From Octopus vulgaris (Eukaryota), in the NCBI GenBank assembly GCA_951406725.2, contig OX597827.1, positions 43,710,001 to 43,774,000 on the forward strand: a stretch of DNA of 64,000 bases. The letters run 5' to 3'. The notes below the pieces were generated by a model. That model worked only from the letters and a program-made list of their open reading frames with translations. It was not told where the DNA came from and made no database searches. Shown in pieces: positions 12,237 through 57,266 of the stretch. The translations under genes and the position numbers were made by a program. How positions within the stretch are numbered: the stretch's first letter is position 1; every line of letters starts with the position of its first letter.

Positions 12237-12575
12237 TATATATATATATATATATATAATTAATCAATATAGGGTGGCAAAAAATTTCGTAGAATTTTTT
12301 TGCTACCAGCGGCCTAGTGGGAAAAAATTAAATAGACATAGACCATTTACAAATTCAACAGCAAATCAAGGAACGGCCATAATAGGCCATTCACCCACTA
12401 GAAATAACAGCCAAAGCTTCAACCGCAAAACAACATCAATTCCGCAAACCAGGAGAAAATTAAAAAAACATTTACCCTGTAGTTCCTTATACGATGCACC
12501 GTTTCATCTATTGTTTAATGGTAAACTAACCTGATTAAATTAAATCAAGCTAGTCTTCCAAGCTAGTCTTCCGAT

Positions 12576-12692
12576 CTGGCTGTTCTTACTGACGAATCTA
12601 TCGGCCTATGGAAGACTAGCTTGATTTAATTTAATCAGGTTAGTTTACCATTAAACAATAGATGAAACGGTGCATCGTATAAGGAACTACAG
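12576..12692 (+). ncRNA. type I hammerhead ribozyme, copy 1
   Basis: gttctta-CTGACGA(12589-95)-atctat...atagat-GAAA(12664-67)-cggtgcatc-GTA(12677-79)-taaggaac; 68-nt stem II hairpin. Confidence 0.85.
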
Positions 12693-13057
12693 GGTAAATG
12701 TTTTTTTAATTTTCTCCTGGTTTGCGGAATTGATGTTGTTTTGCGGTTGAAGCTTTGGCTGTTATTTCTAGTGGGTGAATGGCCTATTATGGCCGTTCCT
12801 TGATTTGCTGTTGAATTTGTAAATGGTCTATGACTATTTAATTTTTTTCCCACTAGCCGCTGGTGGCAAAAAAATTCTACGAAATTTTTTGCCACCCTAT
12901 ATTGATTAATTATGAATTTTCTGGTTAATTCCGTAATGGAATCGGCGGCTTATATTTGCTGCCGATAAATTTGGCGCGAGTGCGATGATTTGAAAATTTT
13001 AGGTCAGATATTGCCGAGACAGTGATAGAAGTGCCTCGTGTAAATATCTGCTCCGAT

Positions 13058-13174
13058 CTGGCTGTTCTTACTGACGAATCTATCGGCCTATGGAAGACTA
13101 GCTTGATTTAATTTAATCAGGTTAGTTTACCATTAAACAATAGATGAAACGGTGCATCGTATAAGGAACTACAG
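13058..13174 (+). ncRNA. type I hammerhead ribozyme, copy 2
   Basis: identical by eye to copy 1, shifted by 482 nt (CTGACGA at 13071, predicted cleavage after 13161). Confidence 0.85.
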
Positions 13175-13284
13175 GGTAAATGTTTTTTTAATTTTCTCCT
13201 GGTTTGCGGAATTGATGTTGTTTTGCGGTTGAAGCTTTGGCTGTTATTTCTAGTGGGTGAATGGCCTATTATGGCCGTTCCTTG

Positions 13285-13328
<44 letters not shown>

Positions 13329-32209: not shown

Positions 32210-32432
32210 ACTCTCTTTTACTCTCTTTTACTCTTTTACTTGTTTCTGTCATTTGACTGTGGCCATGCTGGAGCACCGCCTTTAGCCGAGCACATCGAGC
32301 CCAGGACTTATTCTTTGTAAGCCTAGTACTTGTTCTACATGTCTCTTTTGCCGAACCGCTACGTTACAGGGACGTAAACACACCAGCATCGGTTGTCAAG
32401 CGATGTTGTGGGGGACAAACACAGACACACAA

Positions 32433-32482
<50 letters not shown>

Positions 32483-32646
32483 TCGACGGGCTTCTTTCAG
32501 TTTCCGTCTACCAAATCCACTCACAAGGCTTTGGTTGGCCCGAGGCTATAGTAGAAGATACTTGCCCAAGGTGCCACGCAGTGGGACTGAACTCGGAACC
32601 ATGTAGTTCGTAAGCAAGCTGCTTACCACACAGCCACTCCTACACC
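32210..32646 (-). mobile_element. full-length family 1 SINE
   Basis: tRNA-like head, ttgggcaagt CORE-like segment, internal (TA)/(TG) microsatellite, tail ending in (gagtaaaa)-like repeats. Confidence 0.92.
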
Positions 32647-32704
32647 TCTGTTTTTTTTCTGTTATTATTTTGTTTGTTTTTCTGTTGCCCTCCTCCAGAT
32701 TATC

Positions 32705-32865
32705 ATGTCTTAATGCAACAATGATTGCAAAAGATTGGGGAGAAGAAGACGCCAAACGCCATCACAAGGTTCTACATGGCAGCATCAAAGGCATCACCAA
32801 GTTGGCAACCTGATGTCAACCGTTTTTCGAAATCCTTCTTTGAAAAGACTCGCAATGTGCTCAAG
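32705..32865 (+). pseudogene. decayed histone H4 pseudogene
   Basis: codon-level match to the H4 N-terminus: MS*CNNDCKRLG/EEDAKRHHKVLHGSIKGITKLAT*C vs [37 protein letters not shown], then RFSKSFFEKTRNVLK vs RISGLIYEETRGVLK; stops, frameshift and deletion. Confidence 0.85.
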
Positions 32866-33126
32866 CTAGCCATCTGATGCCCGATTAGTCATGGTAGCCT
32901 GAAGCCTATCTCCGAACCTGGTCTGTTAGGAGACTCATGTATGCTCAAAATGTTTCATAACAATGTGGATGTGATCAACCCATTTTGATTCAAGCTGGTC
33001 AACTCATATTCACTGTTCATCTTTCTGATTTGTGTCATCCGATTCATCTGCTGCTAAGTTATTGACATTTTTTACCTTCGTCTCAGGTTCTTCGCTGTCA
33101 TTTTTATATAATTTACATATAATTTT

Positions 33127-33518
33127 GGCGCAGGAGTGGCTGTGTGGTAAGTAGCTTGCTTACCAACCACATAGTTCCGGGTTCAGTCCCACTGCGTGGA
33201 ACATTGGACAAGTGTCTTCTACTATAGCCTCGGGCCAACCAAAGCCTTGTGAGTGGATTTGGTAGACGGAAACTGAAAGAAGCCGTCGTATATATGTATA
33301 TGTATATGTGTGTGTGTTTGTGTATCGGTGTTTGTCCCCCAGCATCGCTCGACAACCAATGCTAGTGTGTTTACGTCCCCGTAACTTAGCGGTTCGGAAA
33401 ATGAGACTGATAGAGTAAGTACTAGATTTACAAAGAATAAGTCCACGGGTCGATTTGCTCGACCAAAGAAGGTGCTCCAGCATGGCTGCAGTCAAATGAC
33501 TGAAACGAGTAAAGAATA
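33127..33518 (+). mobile_element. full-length family 1 SINE
   Basis: ggcgcaggagtggctgtgtggtaag (A box)...gggttcagtccc (B box); CORE-like segment; internal microsatellite. Confidence 0.92.
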
Positions 33519-39698: not shown

Positions 39699-40709
39699 GG
39701 GGAGTTTCGATCAAAAGGGATCGTAAAAGGAGAGAAGGAGGACAAAAAAAAGGGGGTTAAAAAAAGGGGGAGAGGAAAAAAAAAAAAAAAAAAAAAAAAT
39801 TGATCAATAGGGATCGTTATCACAGAAATGTCAATATGAAGTGTAAAGGGGAGGACAGGTGAGGTTTACCCGTGGAAAGAAAAGCCTACGGAAAAGACCA
39901 CGGTAACCTCGGTCAATGAAGTCACATTTTATATTTCTTTTTTTTTTTTTTTTTTTTGCAAATAAGCAACTCTCTGTTTTCGATTTCTGGGTTCATAGGA
40001 CTATGCTCAAGGTGGCTTCGTCATTCATACGTGCCATTCTTGCTACATTCACCCATCTTTTTTTAAAACATTCGCTAGACAAAACTTGCCTCTCTACTCT
40101 CACTTTCCTTTTCAAGTGGTACTTGAAGAAGTTGATGAGAGATTGACCAGAGAGGAAAGTGTTTGTCTCCAATCCTTTCAGACGCGTCCACCAGATACAT
40201 TCTTTCGCCATAGCCACAAGGATGATGAAAATAGCTCTTCCTTCCCGTTTGAAGGAAGGAGGCGTGACAATATTGACGATAGACTCAGCTGATAAACCGA
40301 CTCGTCCCACACGTGACAGCAGTTGTTCGACATAAGCCCACAGGTCGGAAATTGTTGGACACTGAACGAGTGCGTGCAGAACGGTTTCGTCGCTCTGACC
40401 GCATCTCGGGCAGGTCGGCCCCGTGTTTCTCGAGCCGTGTCTGTAGAGCTTATCCCGAACGGGTAGCGCTTCTCGGTAGCACTGCCAGGCCAGGGATCTC
40501 TGGAAGTTGTCCATGGGCCCTGGCCCGAAAGTCGTCCTGAACAGGCGGGTCAGGTACTCCTCGTCGACGTCCAGGTTCGCCCCGAGCTCGTCGTCGTACC
40601 TCCCCTCCACTAAACCCCTATAGAATGCTTTGGTTGTGTTGAAGTCACTTAAGGTCGACCCAGGACGGCAGAGTTGCTTGAGAGCAACGCGACACTCGCG
40701 GTGCCATTG
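39588..40709 (-). mobile_element. 5'-truncated Tx1/L1-clade LINE (ORF2 C-terminus plus 3' UTR) within a (GATA)n array
   Basis: ALPVRDKL...CPRCGQSDETVLHALVQC...W (zf-RVT CCHC knuckle); AATAAA at 39599-39594 immediately before (TATC)n. Confidence 0.9.
39993..40709 (-). CDS. truncated LINE ORF2 C-terminal region (zinc-binding domain), open to the stop codon
   Basis: about 238 uninterrupted codons; the N-terminal part of track ORF 39993..40871 is microsatellite and not part of the element. Confidence 0.8.
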   Translation of the reverse strand, partial: QWHRECRVALKQLCRPGSTLSDFNTTKAFYRGLVEGRYDDELGANLDVDEEYLTRLFRTTFGPGPMDNFQRSLAWQCYREALPVRDKLYRHGSRNTGPTCPRCGQSDETVLHALVQCPTISDLWAYVEQLLSRVGRVGLSAESIVNIVTPPSFKREGRAIFIILVAMAKECIWWTRLKGLETNTFLSGQSLINFFKYHLKRKVRVERQVLSSECFKKRWVNVARMARMNDEATLSIVL

Positions 40710-40733
40710 ATAGGTAGAGAGAGAGAGAGAGAG

Positions 40734-40788
<55 letters not shown>

Positions 40789-40978
40789 CCAACATGTATA
40801 CGCATACATACACATACATACGGGCATATATATATATAAAAGTGTGTGTGTGTATATATAAATATATGCATTTATATATATGTGTGTATGTGTTCGTATA
40901 TTTGTATAGGTATTTTGTATGTATGTGTGTGTATATAGATAGATAAACAGATAGATAGGTAGAGAGAGAGAGAGAGAG

Positions 40979-46615: not shown

Positions 46616-47979
46616 CATTATTCCCTCACTGAAATTGGATATTTCTTATTCTCATTGTAGATTTTTATTTTTCTTAAATATGTAATTTTGCGAAGGAGTG
46701 CTGGTAATTCTTTCTCTTCTTCTTTCTCTCTATGGTCCAGTCAACTAATCAGGGCACTCTTTTTTAATTTTCTTCCGTTTCTTTTATATACGTATTTTGA
46801 TTTCTTTGTTTCCTTTTTTTTTCAGTGTATTTTTCTCTGTATTTTTTATTCTTTCTTTTTGCTGTTAAATATTTTAAGAGTGTTGCTATACAGTTTATTG
46901 GAAATCGATAGAAATAAATAGTTTCCTAAAAATAACTTAATACCGTATCGATTTCTCTGATAAGGTAGGCACAAAGTCACAGTTTTTGTTTCTTGTTTTC
47001 GTCAGGTAAGAGATAGGAGGTCTCGATATAAAACGCTTTGAACGCATTACTCGAATGGTTACTTGTCTTAGCAACATAGAAAGTTTGAAGACAAAATCGA
47101 TGGACGCTCTCGGGATTTGAACGTCAAACATTAAGAGAACATAGTGAAATACGACAAGAAAATTTTGCTTCGTGTGTTCCACCGATTCTGCCTTTCACCG
47201 TCCTATTTTCCTTTTATGGGCACAAGGTCAGAATTTTTTTTTTGTGTGTGAGAGAAAGCGAGGGAGAGTATTGATTATGTTGCTACATATGTTTGAATAA
47301 TGTGGTTGTGGTGCTGGTCGTGGTCGTGGTGGTTGTGGTCGTGGTGGTGATGGTTGTGGTGGCGTTGCTGGTCGTGATTGTGGCGGTGGTAGTGATATAG
47401 GTAGTGATGACAGAGGCGGTGTACTTGTAGGGAAGATGGTCCTGCTGCTGCAGCTGTTGCTGGTGGTGGTAGTTGTGGTGGTAGCGTTTGTGATGACGGT
47501 AATGGTAGTAGGGCCTGTAGTATTTGTGGTGGTGGTGGTCGTCGTCGTTGTCATCGTTGTGTTTTTTTTTTTTTTGGTATGGTTAGTAGTTGTGGTGGAT
47601 TTGGTTTGGTAGCGTTTTGCTTGAGGCGGTGCTGGTAGTGATTATGGTGGATATGATAATGGCGGTGCTGGTGGTGATAGTGGTTGGGGTGTGGGAATTA
47701 GTTTCGCTGGTGATGGTAGTGGCTGTCGGGGTTTTGGTGTTAGTGGTGATGGTGAAAGGTAAGAGCCGATTAGATCCTCTTTTTATAATTAAATAATTTA
47801 GTACGGAAATCCGTATTTGATATATCAGTTCATATTTGCCAAACCTCCATGTTAAGAGACATACAGTCACGCAACAGAGTCACACACTGGCATCCTGTAC
47901 ACACACACACATATATATATATACACACACATACATATATATATATATGTATGTATACATATATATATATTTATATTTA

Positions 47980-48388
47980 GGCGCAGGAGTGGGTGTGTGG
48001 TAAGTAGCTTTCTTACCAACCACACGGTTCAGTGTTCAGTCCCACTGCGTGGCACCTTTTGCAAGTGACTTCTACTATAGCCTCGGGCCGACCAGAGCCT
48101 TGCTAATGGATTTGGTAGACGGAAACTGAAAGAAGCCCGTCGCATATATGTATATATATATGTATATATATGTGTGTTGGTGTGTGTGTATGATTGTGTG
48201 TCTGTGTTTGCCCCCCCCCCCCAACATCGATTGACAACCGATACTGGTGTGTTTATGTCCCCGTAACTTAGTAGTTCGGCAAAAGAGACCGATAGAATAA
48301 GTACTAAGCATACAAAGAATAAGTCCTGGGGTCGATTTGCTCGACTAAAGGCGGTGCTCCAGCATGAAACAAGTTAAAGAGTAAAGAG

Positions 48389-49205: not shown

Positions 49206-49280
49206 TATGTCTATGTGCGTGTATGTATTTGTGTGTGTACATATAACTGTGTGTACGTATATATATATATATATATATAT

Positions 49281-49796
49281 TAAGCAATTAAGGGTTTAGC
49301 AACGAATTGCCTCACCACACACCGAATTTAGAAATAGCAGTCAAAGAGTTATAGCTATTCTTTCTACTAAAAGGGAGATCTCAGTAAAAATACAGCACTT
49401 GAATGGCAAACACAGACAGGTAAGAGAGAATGAAATGACGGCAATCTATCATACAATTTTAAGTCACCTACGGACGTACGTTTCGAAATCAAGTTTTAGG
49501 AAAGCATAAGAATTAGATAATTCTACCTTACCCAAACTTCTTTTCTCATCAGCGTAGGATACTACAATTATGAATAATTGTATATTAAATTTTGAGATCT
49601 CCCTTTTAGTAGAAAGAATAGCTATAACTCTTTGACTGCTATTTCTAAATTCGGTGTGTGGTGAGGCAATTCGTTGCTAAACCCTTAATTGCTTAGTATT
49701 ACTTAAATTTTCCTCGAATGAGGCTTTTACATGCCGAAATCTACTTGGTGTAATTAATAATTATTCCAAATTAATTAATTTCACCCTTTATTGTTA

Positions 49797-49800
<4 letters not shown>
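49281..49800 (-). mobile_element. non-coding fold-back element (Penelope pseudo-LTR / retrozyme-like) in (TA)n
   Basis: 103-bp inverted repeat 49281-49383 / 49593-49695, identical by eye; hammerhead in the spacer; (TA)n on both flanks. Confidence 0.85.
49467..49558 (-). ncRNA. canonical type I hammerhead ribozyme
   Basis: minus strand cctacg-CTGATGA-gaaa...tttc-GAAA-cgtac-GTC-cgtagg: 6-bp stem I, G-C closed 61-nt stem II, palindromic acgtacgt stem III, GUC site. Confidence 0.92.
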
Positions 49801-49864
<64 letters not shown>

Positions 49865-56385: not shown

Positions 56386-56415
56386 CTCAAAGTTATATGT
56401 ATACATATATTTATT

Positions 56416-57084
56416 TATAAAGGGTCGTTGGTAAGGCCAAAACAATGCGAAGTAAATGCAAGGTAAATCACAAGAAAACAAATATGTGATTTAATGTAGA
56501 CTTACCTTGTATTCAATATTTCAGGTTTATGACCCCATTTTCAAGAAATTGACGAATGTTGCCGATGTGCATGAGTGTGAGCGTGTGTGGAGGGGACATG
56601 CGCAGGAAGTGTTGCTATATGAGATCATCTGTGGCAAAAGTGGCTCATCCTACATAAGTACCACGACAAGAAAACTGCATATACGCATTAAGGAACACAT
56701 GCAGACAGACACTTCCGTGAAGAAACATCTACGGAAATGCCAGACCCGGGAATTCACAGTGCACATCAAGACAACAGAGCGGAACAGGGGCAACCTTAGA
56801 ATCTCTGAGGCCATCCACATACACCAAAAGAATCCCAAGATCGACAACAGAAGAGAGTTACAGGAAGTTAGCTGGTTGCTATAGCAACACCTTCCCGCGC
56901 ATATCCACTCCACACATGCTCACACACAGGCACATCGGCAACATTCAACTATTTCTTGAAAATGGGGTCATAACCCCGAAATATTGAATACAAAGTAAGT
57001 CTACATTAATTCACATATTGGTTTTCTTGTGATTTACCTTGCATTTACTTCGCATTGTTTTAACCTTACCCACGATCCTTTATA
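56416..57084 (+). mobile_element. truncated Penelope-like element: GIY-YIG fragment between inverted pseudo-LTRs
   Basis: 56416-56619 is a diverged inverted copy of 56880-57084; the right arm has a degenerate hammerhead ttc-TTGAAAA-tgggg-tcataa-cccc-GAAA-tatt-gaa (56953-56988). Confidence 0.88.
56618..56884 (+). pseudogene. Penelope GIY-YIG endonuclease C-terminal fragment
   Basis: YEIICGKSGSSYISTTTRKLHIRIKEH...LRISEAIHIHQKNPKIDNRRE matches the PLE pattern YxIxC..C..YIGxTxRxLxxRxxEH...EAxxI...PxIN. Confidence 0.85.
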
Positions 57085-57266
57085 CACATATATAGTCTAC
57101 ACAATGCTTCGTAGTAATATTCCATTATATATATATATATATATATATATATAAGAGATAATGGTGTCATTGAGACCCAAAGGTGTCAGGTAATGCTGAA
57201 TAAGTGCTAAAGACAGACCATAGTTAAGTTCCAGATTCGGTAATATTACAAATACAGGGTTCAACG

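What the first reader, a model, noticed from the sequence alone, without database searches (positions are those of the whole stretch)
49281..49800. Fully canonical hammerhead in the loop of a perfect 103-bp inverted repeat
Seen: the minus strand has every conserved core nucleotide (CUGAUGA, GAAA, GUC), a 6-bp stem I, and a self-complementary ACGUACGU stem III. Established: palindromic stem III is the signature of animal type I hammerheads that cleave as dimers. The sequence is largely unrelated to the 12.3-kb element, yet the layout (fold-back, no ORF, TA flanks) is the same, so this is a second independent family. Identical arms suggest recent insertion.
Basis: partly seen in the sequence, partly recalled or inferred. 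Interest (0 to 1): 0.85.

Follow-up and report, generated by a model that had tools for sequence, protein, structure and literature searches.

The report
Folded-back copy of ribozyme retrotransposon
This is one folded-back copy of a young family of hundreds of small non-coding mobile elements, whose RNA carries a hammerhead predicted to cut itself and is likely copied into TA repeats by a Penelope-like enzyme starting at two fixed points; the kind is known, but its strict two-ended pattern offers a test of how such enzymes integrate.

Summary
In detail: perfect 103-bp arms and a complete type I hammerhead core, predicted cut 49473/49472. But the fold-back is not the element. The element is a 583-nt non-coding tandem unit with one hammerhead, with 549 exact core matches in the genome, inserted in (TA)n with 5' truncation: a non-LTR retrozyme, i.e. 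a non-autonomous Penelope-like element (PLE). The window copy is a head-to-head insertion joined at a 6-nt microhomology; 33 of 70 sampled insertions are inverted, at scattered points. RNA 3' ends sit at two sites about 105 nt apart (A, B). 31 of 33 inverted copies have one A and one B end, none AA or BB, and both arms share private variants. Autonomous Hydra-like and Neptune-like PLEs in this genome follow the same rule in small samples. Compensatory changes support stems I and II. Likely mechanism: a PLE protein primes both target strands, one at each start site, on a circular or uncut multimeric RNA. Cleavage, expression and the driving PLE are not shown. The class, inverted layout and 'tail' are published. 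New: this family, a tail three times longer, and the counted A+B rule.

The parts
49258..49280 (.). Left (TA)n tract, target site; any duplication cannot be read
49281..49598 (-). Inverted segment (RNA sense on minus): unit 458-583 running through the hammerhead cut into unit 1-192; its RNA 3' end is site A, at 49281 against the TA tract
49281..49383 (-). Left arm of the 103-bp inverted repeat (unit 90-192)
49467..49558 (-). Type I hammerhead: stem I 49558-49553/49472-49467, CUGAUGA 49552-49546, extended stem II 49545-49485, GAAA 49484-49481, palindromic stem III 49481-49474, predicted cut 49473/49472
49593..49598 (.). 6-nt microhomology at the inversion junction (fits unit 458-463 antisense and unit 90-95 sense)
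49593..49802 (+). Sense segment, unit 90-299; its RNA 3' end is site B, against the right TA tract
49593..49695 (+). Right arm of the inverted repeat (unit 90-192)
49650..49738 (+). Predicted RNA domain closed by a 10-bp stem (49650-49659 with 49729-49738) that encloses site A; kept with compensatory changes in sister families
49696..49802 (+). 'Tail' between sites A and B, present at this end only; holds a conserved hairpin (49747-49785) just before site B
49803..49861 (.). Right (TA)n tract

Best explanation
The locus is one head-to-head, 5'-truncated insertion of a 583-nt non-coding tandem unit that carries a hammerhead predicted to self-cleave, a non-LTR retrozyme likely mobilised in trans by a Penelope-like RT/GIY-YIG protein. 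Shown from sequence: unit, copy number, (TA)n targeting, two fixed RNA 3' ends (A about 192-202, B about 288-306 nt after the cut), scattered 5' ends, one A plus one B end in inverted copies, read-through across the cut site. Inferred: (1) tandem copies are transcribed and the hammerheads pair through ACGUACGU and cut as dimers, giving monomers that may be circularised; (2) a PLE protein, most likely of the Hydra-like families and probably as a dimer, binds the structured A-B region and nicks both strands of a (TA)n tract; (3) one target end primes cDNA at A and the other at B, on a circular or uncut multimeric RNA; (4) the two cDNAs stop at random points and are joined by microhomology or short fillers. 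The 103-bp arms are simply the stretch copied by both cDNAs.
For: Tandem 583-nt period. 549 exact matches of the core 21-mer and 1221 of a 24-mer near site A, controls 0. First 100 of those 1221 hits, in genome order = 70 insertions: 33 inverted, 37 not; inverted ends 31 A+B, 0 AA, 0 BB, 2 other; uninverted 27 A, 9 B, 1 other; TA-rich flanks at 83 of 103 RNA-3' ends but 10 of 37 5' ends. If ends were drawn independently, 31 A+B has chance 6e-14 to 5e-10. Same rule in the 545-nt family (6 of 6 pairs), the 12.3-kb family (2 of 2), autonomous Hydra-like 899-aa (5 of 5) and 778-aa (3 of 3) and Neptune-like 781-aa elements (2 of 2). Arms of one insertion differ by 0.71 against 3.33 mismatches per 76 nt between insertions (14 of 33 measurable; 0 of 20000 permutations); successive tandem units by 0.78 against 6.2 per 185 nt (9 arrays). 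Hammerhead: 108 of 108 cells paired, 3 of 12 pairs changed on both sides in 9 chosen variants; core mismatch 1.9% against 8.5% elsewhere in 63 segments anchored outside the core, p=0.02; 9 of 17 distinct stem III hexamers palindromic, 1 in 16 expected. Intact PLE ORFs, many in TA tracts and several with similar hammerheads, exist in the genome. Published: inverted 5'-truncated copy and one-ended tail in PLEs (PMC8557442, PMC3846280); both strands cut and extended, two RT starts bounding the tail (PMC11167929).
Against: No autonomous element sharing this unit's sequence was found among the PLE loci held, and hammerhead likeness to the Hydra-like families is marginal (12-34 of 300 shuffles reach the score), so the driver is inferred. 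The monomer's lowest-energy fold is non-catalytic (-25.5 against -22.3 kcal/mol). 5' ends do not pile up at the cut (1 of 103 within 5 nt), so nothing in the insertions shows that cleavage happens; in PMC11167929 hammerhead mutants still inserted in vitro and the two strands showed no difference in start site; in the 2026 preprint 8 of 9 tested retrozyme dimers did not cleave. Covariation rests on few independent changes among related sequences. Arm identity could also come from two RNAs of one source locus or from gene conversion.
Confidence: 0.8

Rival explanations
1. Same element class, but the inversion arises by self-priming or fold-back of one nucleic acid (for example on an antisense template, as proposed in PMC3846280), or one end is made by endonuclease resolution of the intermediate, not by two target-primed cDNAs.
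For: PMC3846280 reads head-to-head repeats as self-priming; PMC8557442 ascribes the tail to endonuclease resolution. One template lineage for both arms fits. Several 5' ends cluster at unit 104-107, beside a short hairpin.
Against: Junctions are scattered and the two cDNA ends are unrelated positions (458 and 90 here), mostly with short overlaps or fillers rather than a palindrome; both A and B occur alone as 3' ends of uninverted copies (27 and 9 of 37); two RT starts and extension of both strands were seen in vitro for another PLE (PMC11167929).
Confidence: 0.15
2. The hammerhead is a weak or dispensable passenger: the template is the uncut read-through of tandem copies, no circle is made, and arrays grow by copying arrays.
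For: Non-catalytic monomer fold preferred; no pile-up of 5' ends at the cut and segments up to 1160 nt read across it; hammerhead not needed for insertion in vitro (PMC11167929).
Against: Core, stems and stem III palindrome are kept across subfamilies and distant families; units fold below all shuffles or by 4 sd or more; circular RNAs are shown for coral, mussel and axolotl retrozymes (PMC7229834).
Confidence: 0.3
3. A MITE or fold-back DNA transposon with 103-bp terminal repeats and TA target duplication that happens to carry a hammerhead (closest to the first reader's picture of a fold-back family).
For: Perfect arms, no ORF, TA flanks.
Against: The right arm is not terminal; 37 of 70 insertions have no inversion; arm length and junction vary; head-to-tail arrays and 5' truncation are common.
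Confidence: 0.02
4. The driver is the abundant intact Neptune-like 781-aa element rather than a Hydra-like one.
For: Many intact copies, TA-targeted, and it obeys the A+B rule in 2 of 2 pairs.
Against: Its A-B offset is 35 nt, against about 105 in the retrozymes and about 155 in the Hydra-like families; no canonical hammerhead or DNA similarity to the unit was seen in its repeats.
Confidence: 0.2

Closest known systems
Non-LTR retrozymes of animals (Cervera and de la Pena 2020, PMC7229834; Li et al. 2026, bioRxiv 10.64898/2026.07.22.740005)
   Same: Non-coding tandem unit, GC 36%, one type I hammerhead per unit, dispersed monomers to multimers, short palindromic stem III, co-occurrence with PLEs.
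   Different: Unit 583 nt (above the 170-400 nt of the 2020 paper, within the 51-972 of the preprint); ~60-nt stem II region; about half of the insertions inverted; strong (TA)n targeting; circular RNA and cleavage not shown here. 'Inverted' has 0 occurrences in the 2020 main text.
Penelope-like element pseudo-LTR insertions with inverted 5'-truncated copy and one-ended 'tail' (PMC3846280, PMC8557442, PMC11167929)
   Same: Head-to-head inverted layout, 5' truncation, two alternative 3' ends, AT-rich targets, hammerhead upstream of the ends.
   Different: No ORF; tail about 105 nt instead of 30-40; the one-A-one-B pairing is counted here (31 of 33), whereas the passages I read say only 'often' or 'optionally'.
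Hydra clade of PLEs (PMC8557442, section 11)
   Same: Resident 778- and 899-aa ORFs have RxRW, DKT, C-terminal CxxC and CxH motifs, canonical-type hammerheads with long stem II and palindromic stem III, (TA)n insertion, long A-B offset.
   Different: These two lack the CxCX5C linker that their database relatives have; no sequence homology to the unit's A-B region; clade placement not tested with a tree.
Newt and axolotl satellite hammerheads that cleave as dimers (PMC4209133, PMC7229834)
   Same: 6-bp stem I, 4-bp stem II, 1-2-bp stem III with palindromic loop.
   Different: Loop II replaced by a long extension; tertiary loop I-II contact not evident; Rfam models do not match.

Membership tests
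Type I hammerhead ribozyme | Conserved core CUGANGA, GAAA, NUH with three helices, stem I open | tested here: met
Type I hammerhead ribozyme | Compensatory changes in the stems | tested here: met
   3 of 12 pairs changed on both sides, 108 of 108 cells paired, 9 chosen related variants; few independent events
Type I hammerhead ribozyme | Match to an Rfam hammerhead model | tested here: not met
   no hit at gathering score or E<=10; the long stem II is the likely cause (inference)
Type I hammerhead ribozyme | Self-cleavage, as a dimer | not testable with these tools
   only energies: monomer prefers a non-catalytic fold, palindrome duplex -9.8 kcal/mol
Non-LTR retrozyme | Tandem units, each with a type I hammerhead; no ORF; low GC | tested here: met
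Non-LTR retrozyme | Dispersed multicopy family with signs of retrotransposition (fixed 3' ends, 5' truncation) | tested here: met
Non-LTR retrozyme | Expressed as linear and circular RNA | tested here: inconclusive
   no RNA holder listed; only contigs could be laid
Non-autonomous Penelope-like element | Partial tandems, inverted 5'-truncated copy, one-ended tail | tested here: met
Non-autonomous Penelope-like element | Sequence homology to the pseudo-LTR of an autonomous PLE | tested here: not met
   none among the PLE loci held; only the best 59-150 of thousands of candidates were scored per search, so a parent is not excluded
Non-autonomous Penelope-like element | Intact PLE RT/endonuclease available in the genome | tested here: met
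MITE / fold-back DNA transposon | Fixed terminal inverted repeats on all copies | tested here: not met
Hydra clade (candidate driver, 778/899-aa ORFs) | RWK-like and DKT motifs, CxxC and CxH in the endonuclease, CxCX5C linker, hammerhead, (TA)n | tested here: inconclusive
   all seen except the linker; no tree built; no Pfam hit, though many relatives carry PF26215

The most novel reading that the evidence does not exclude
A Hydra-like PLE dimer holds one retrozyme RNA circle through a ~200-nt structured signal and starts reverse transcription at two fixed points about 105 nt apart, one on each strand of a cut (TA)n tract, so that both ends of an insertion are made in one coordinated reaction. 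The signal is portable and works in trans without the ORF, which gives a minimal substrate for solving PLE integration and a natural (TA)n-targeted RNA-to-DNA insertion cassette.
Probability: 0.35. Interest if true: 0.7.

Novelty: new member of a known kind. Interest (0 to 1): 0.42.

Why it matters
How Penelope-like elements build their tandem and inverted insertions is stated as unresolved in PMC8557442, and the 2026 preprint names the retrozyme mobilisation mechanism and the invertebrate case as open. This family gives hundreds of young, short copies whose ends can be counted. They carry the PLE integration signature (two starts, one at each end of inverted copies) in an element with no ORF, which is mechanistic support for PLE-driven retrozymes in an invertebrate, and they point to a small structured RNA signal and to intact candidate enzymes for an in vitro test. 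For annotation: such fold-backs will be mistaken for MITEs.

Tried and rejected
Rfam: no family at gathering score in the window; at E<=10 only microsatellite-driven miRNA and other chance hits. Search for a parent PLE: GIY-YIG family search, Hydra-like RT queries and the window's own PLE fragment gave 110 loci plus 43 longer stretches; unit-like DNA near ORFs (L038, L133, L252, L356, L024) proved to be separate insertions bounded by TA, and in the 722-aa family a passenger in the 3' region. A motif seen upstream of unit position 105 in one other organism's contigs had 0 matches in this genome. Expression: no RNA holder listed; four contig sets laid on the unit, three only guessed to be RNA, cover all 30 bins but cannot show strand, ends or circles, so this is evidence neither way. 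PDB sequence search with the 778-aa ORF: nothing; Pfam: nothing for the 778/899-aa ORFs or the window fragment. Test for 5' ends at the cut site: negative. Some apparent 5'-end peaks (84, 476) are alignment breaks in older subfamilies. The 23 A+B pairs under the 594-nt reference include 583-family copies and are not counted as independent. Earlier scan notes: three look-ups, nothing. MITE, chance motif and host-gene regulatory hairpin were considered; the first two are rejected, the last was not tested.

Full report
Observation. The arms at 49281-49383 and 49593-49695 are a perfect 103-bp inverted repeat around 209 nt, and the minus strand holds a type I hammerhead with 6-bp stem I, CUGAUGA at 49552, 4-bp stem II, GAAA, palindromic ACGUACGU and a predicted cut after 49473. 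A strict scan finds 3 motifs in the window against 0 in each of 100 shuffles. Rfam does not see it; the stem II region is 61 nt long, unlike the small-loop canonical form. The monomer prefers a non-catalytic fold by 3 kcal/mol, while the palindrome could pair between two copies at -9.8, as described for animal type I motifs that cleave as dimers (PMC4209133).

What the element is. A search of the 2.8-Gb genome gave 155 matches from 40 scored of 2315 candidates, the best at 89-100% identity. Many stop at the window's junction and continue into other sequence; L013 shows a head-to-tail unit of 583 nt, cut to cut, 36% GC, longest ORF 49 aa. Exact patterns give 549 matches for the core and 1221 near the 3' end, controls 0; these are lower bounds and not copy numbers. 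Sister units of 594, 602 and 545 nt are clearly homologous; units of 535 and 482 nt (the 12.3-kb element) are not significantly alike to it overall, though alike to each other. The 545-nt family forms arrays of up to 12 units whose 231-nt query region is identical. The host is probably an octopod: the closest named relative of a resident PLE protein is from Argonauta hians. This is inference only.

How the fold-back arises. In unit coordinates the window copy is antisense 192 to 1, through the cut to 458, then sense 90 to 299, joined at a 6-nt microhomology. Both outer ends are RNA 3' ends. I mapped the first 100 of the 1221 hits in genome order, 70 insertions: 37 are uninverted (3' end at site A 27, site B 9, other 1) and 33 inverted, of which 31 have A at one end and B at the other, none AA or BB, 2 other. 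TA-rich flanks lie at 83 of 103 3' ends and 10 of 37 free 5' ends. A partly overlapping set of 60 loci chosen by the core motif shows the same picture. 5' ends are scattered, only 1 of 103 lies within 5 nt of the cut, and segments up to 1160 nt run across it, so the template is a circle or an uncut multimer. In 14 of the 33 inverted insertions where both arms cover unit 110-185, arms differ by 0.71 mismatches against 3.33 between insertions and share private variants; successive tandem units differ by 0.78 against 6.2 (9 arrays). One template lineage per insertion follows; one molecule does not strictly follow, since two RNAs of one source locus or conversion would look the same.

Structure under selection. 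Nine hammerhead variants that I chose for their differences keep all 12 pairs, three by changes on both sides. In 63 segments anchored outside the core, core sites differ at 1.9% against 8.5% elsewhere (p=0.02). Nine of 17 distinct stem III hexamers are palindromic. The A-B region has a consensus fold across six related sequences, with a 10-bp stem that encloses site A and a hairpin before site B; 7 of 33 pairs show double changes, covariation term -0.97. These sequences are related, so the support is moderate.

The driver. The genome holds intact PLE ORFs: a two-ORF Neptune-like family (781 aa, RT and GIY-YIG by Pfam) and single-ORF Hydra-like families of 778, 899, 727, 838, 842 and about 722 aa. 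The 778- and 899-aa families carry hammerheads of the same build upstream of the ORF start, end in (TA)n and obey the A+B rule in 3 of 3 and 5 of 5 pairs with a ~155-nt offset; Neptune obeys it in 2 of 2 with 35 nt. No autonomous element shares the unit's sequence, and hammerhead likeness to the Hydra-like ones is marginal. I favour a Hydra-like driver on the long offset and the hammerhead build, but this is not shown.

Mechanism. Likely: tandem copies are transcribed; hammerheads cut as dimers and monomers may circularise; a PLE protein binds the A-B structure, nicks both strands of (TA)n and primes one cDNA at A and one at B; the cDNAs stop at random and are joined. Shown are the ends, junctions, arrays and conservation; every biochemical step is inferred. 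Against: cleavage leaves no trace in the insertions, hammerhead mutants still inserted in vitro for an Anolis PLE and start sites did not differ by strand (PMC11167929), and 8 of 9 Xenopus dimers did not cleave (2026 preprint).

Comparison with print. Six searches. Non-LTR retrozymes, their PLE origin, the inverted 5' copy, the 30-40-nt one-ended tail and its identity with two RT starts are all published. In these searches I found no description of this family, of a ~105-nt tail or of a counted one-A-one-B rule; subscription papers, unread supplements and repeat databases could hold them. L1 twin priming, which this resembles, is recalled and not read; there the two segments do not overlap.

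Verdict. A real and young member of a known class. Interest 0.42, mostly for the clean two-ended rule and the in vitro test it opens.

Noticed in passing
window 12256-13288: Second retrozyme family, 482-nt unit with two hammerheads (12589, 13071); inverted insertion with a B end on the left and an A end on the right; similar to a 535-nt unit in L002 (score 97, shuffles max 49).
   Followed up: partly
window 56406-57094: Fold-back (204-nt arms, 90%) around a GIY-YIG-like ORF end (56495-56884): an old truncated PLE; 150 matches from 1783 candidates, many with stops. No Pfam hit.
   Followed up: partly
G000:C1:71597071-71603307; L294-L323: 545-nt sister family, very young: all 40 scored hits identical over 231 nt, arrays of up to 12 units.
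   Followed up: partly
L358-L361, about 350-550 nt past the ORF stop: All 4 of 4 copies of a ~722-aa Hydra-like family carry the same A/B fold-back fragment of a 545-like unit in their microsatellite-rich 3' region: a retrozyme insertion spread by an autonomous element.
   Followed up: partly
L121, L124, L138: Abundant intact Neptune-like element with an upstream 479-aa ORF of unknown function; TA-targeted, no canonical hammerhead found, 35-nt tail.
   Followed up: partly
L274, L277: Hydra-like 778- and 899-aa ORFs lack the CxCX5C linker yet insert in (TA)n, against the proposed link between that linker and microsatellite targeting.
   Followed up: partly
window 39993-40871 (-): Open frame with a CxxC...H...C stretch that looks like the end of a LINE protein (likeness recalled, not tested).
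   Followed up: no
window 32235-33513 and 47979-48366: Dispersed repeats in opposite orientation, 80-88% alike, probably SINE-like.
   Followed up: no
window 12973-12981; L002 unit: The 482- and 535-nt units share a TTTGGCGCG word that resembles an E2F site (motif recalled).
   Followed up: no
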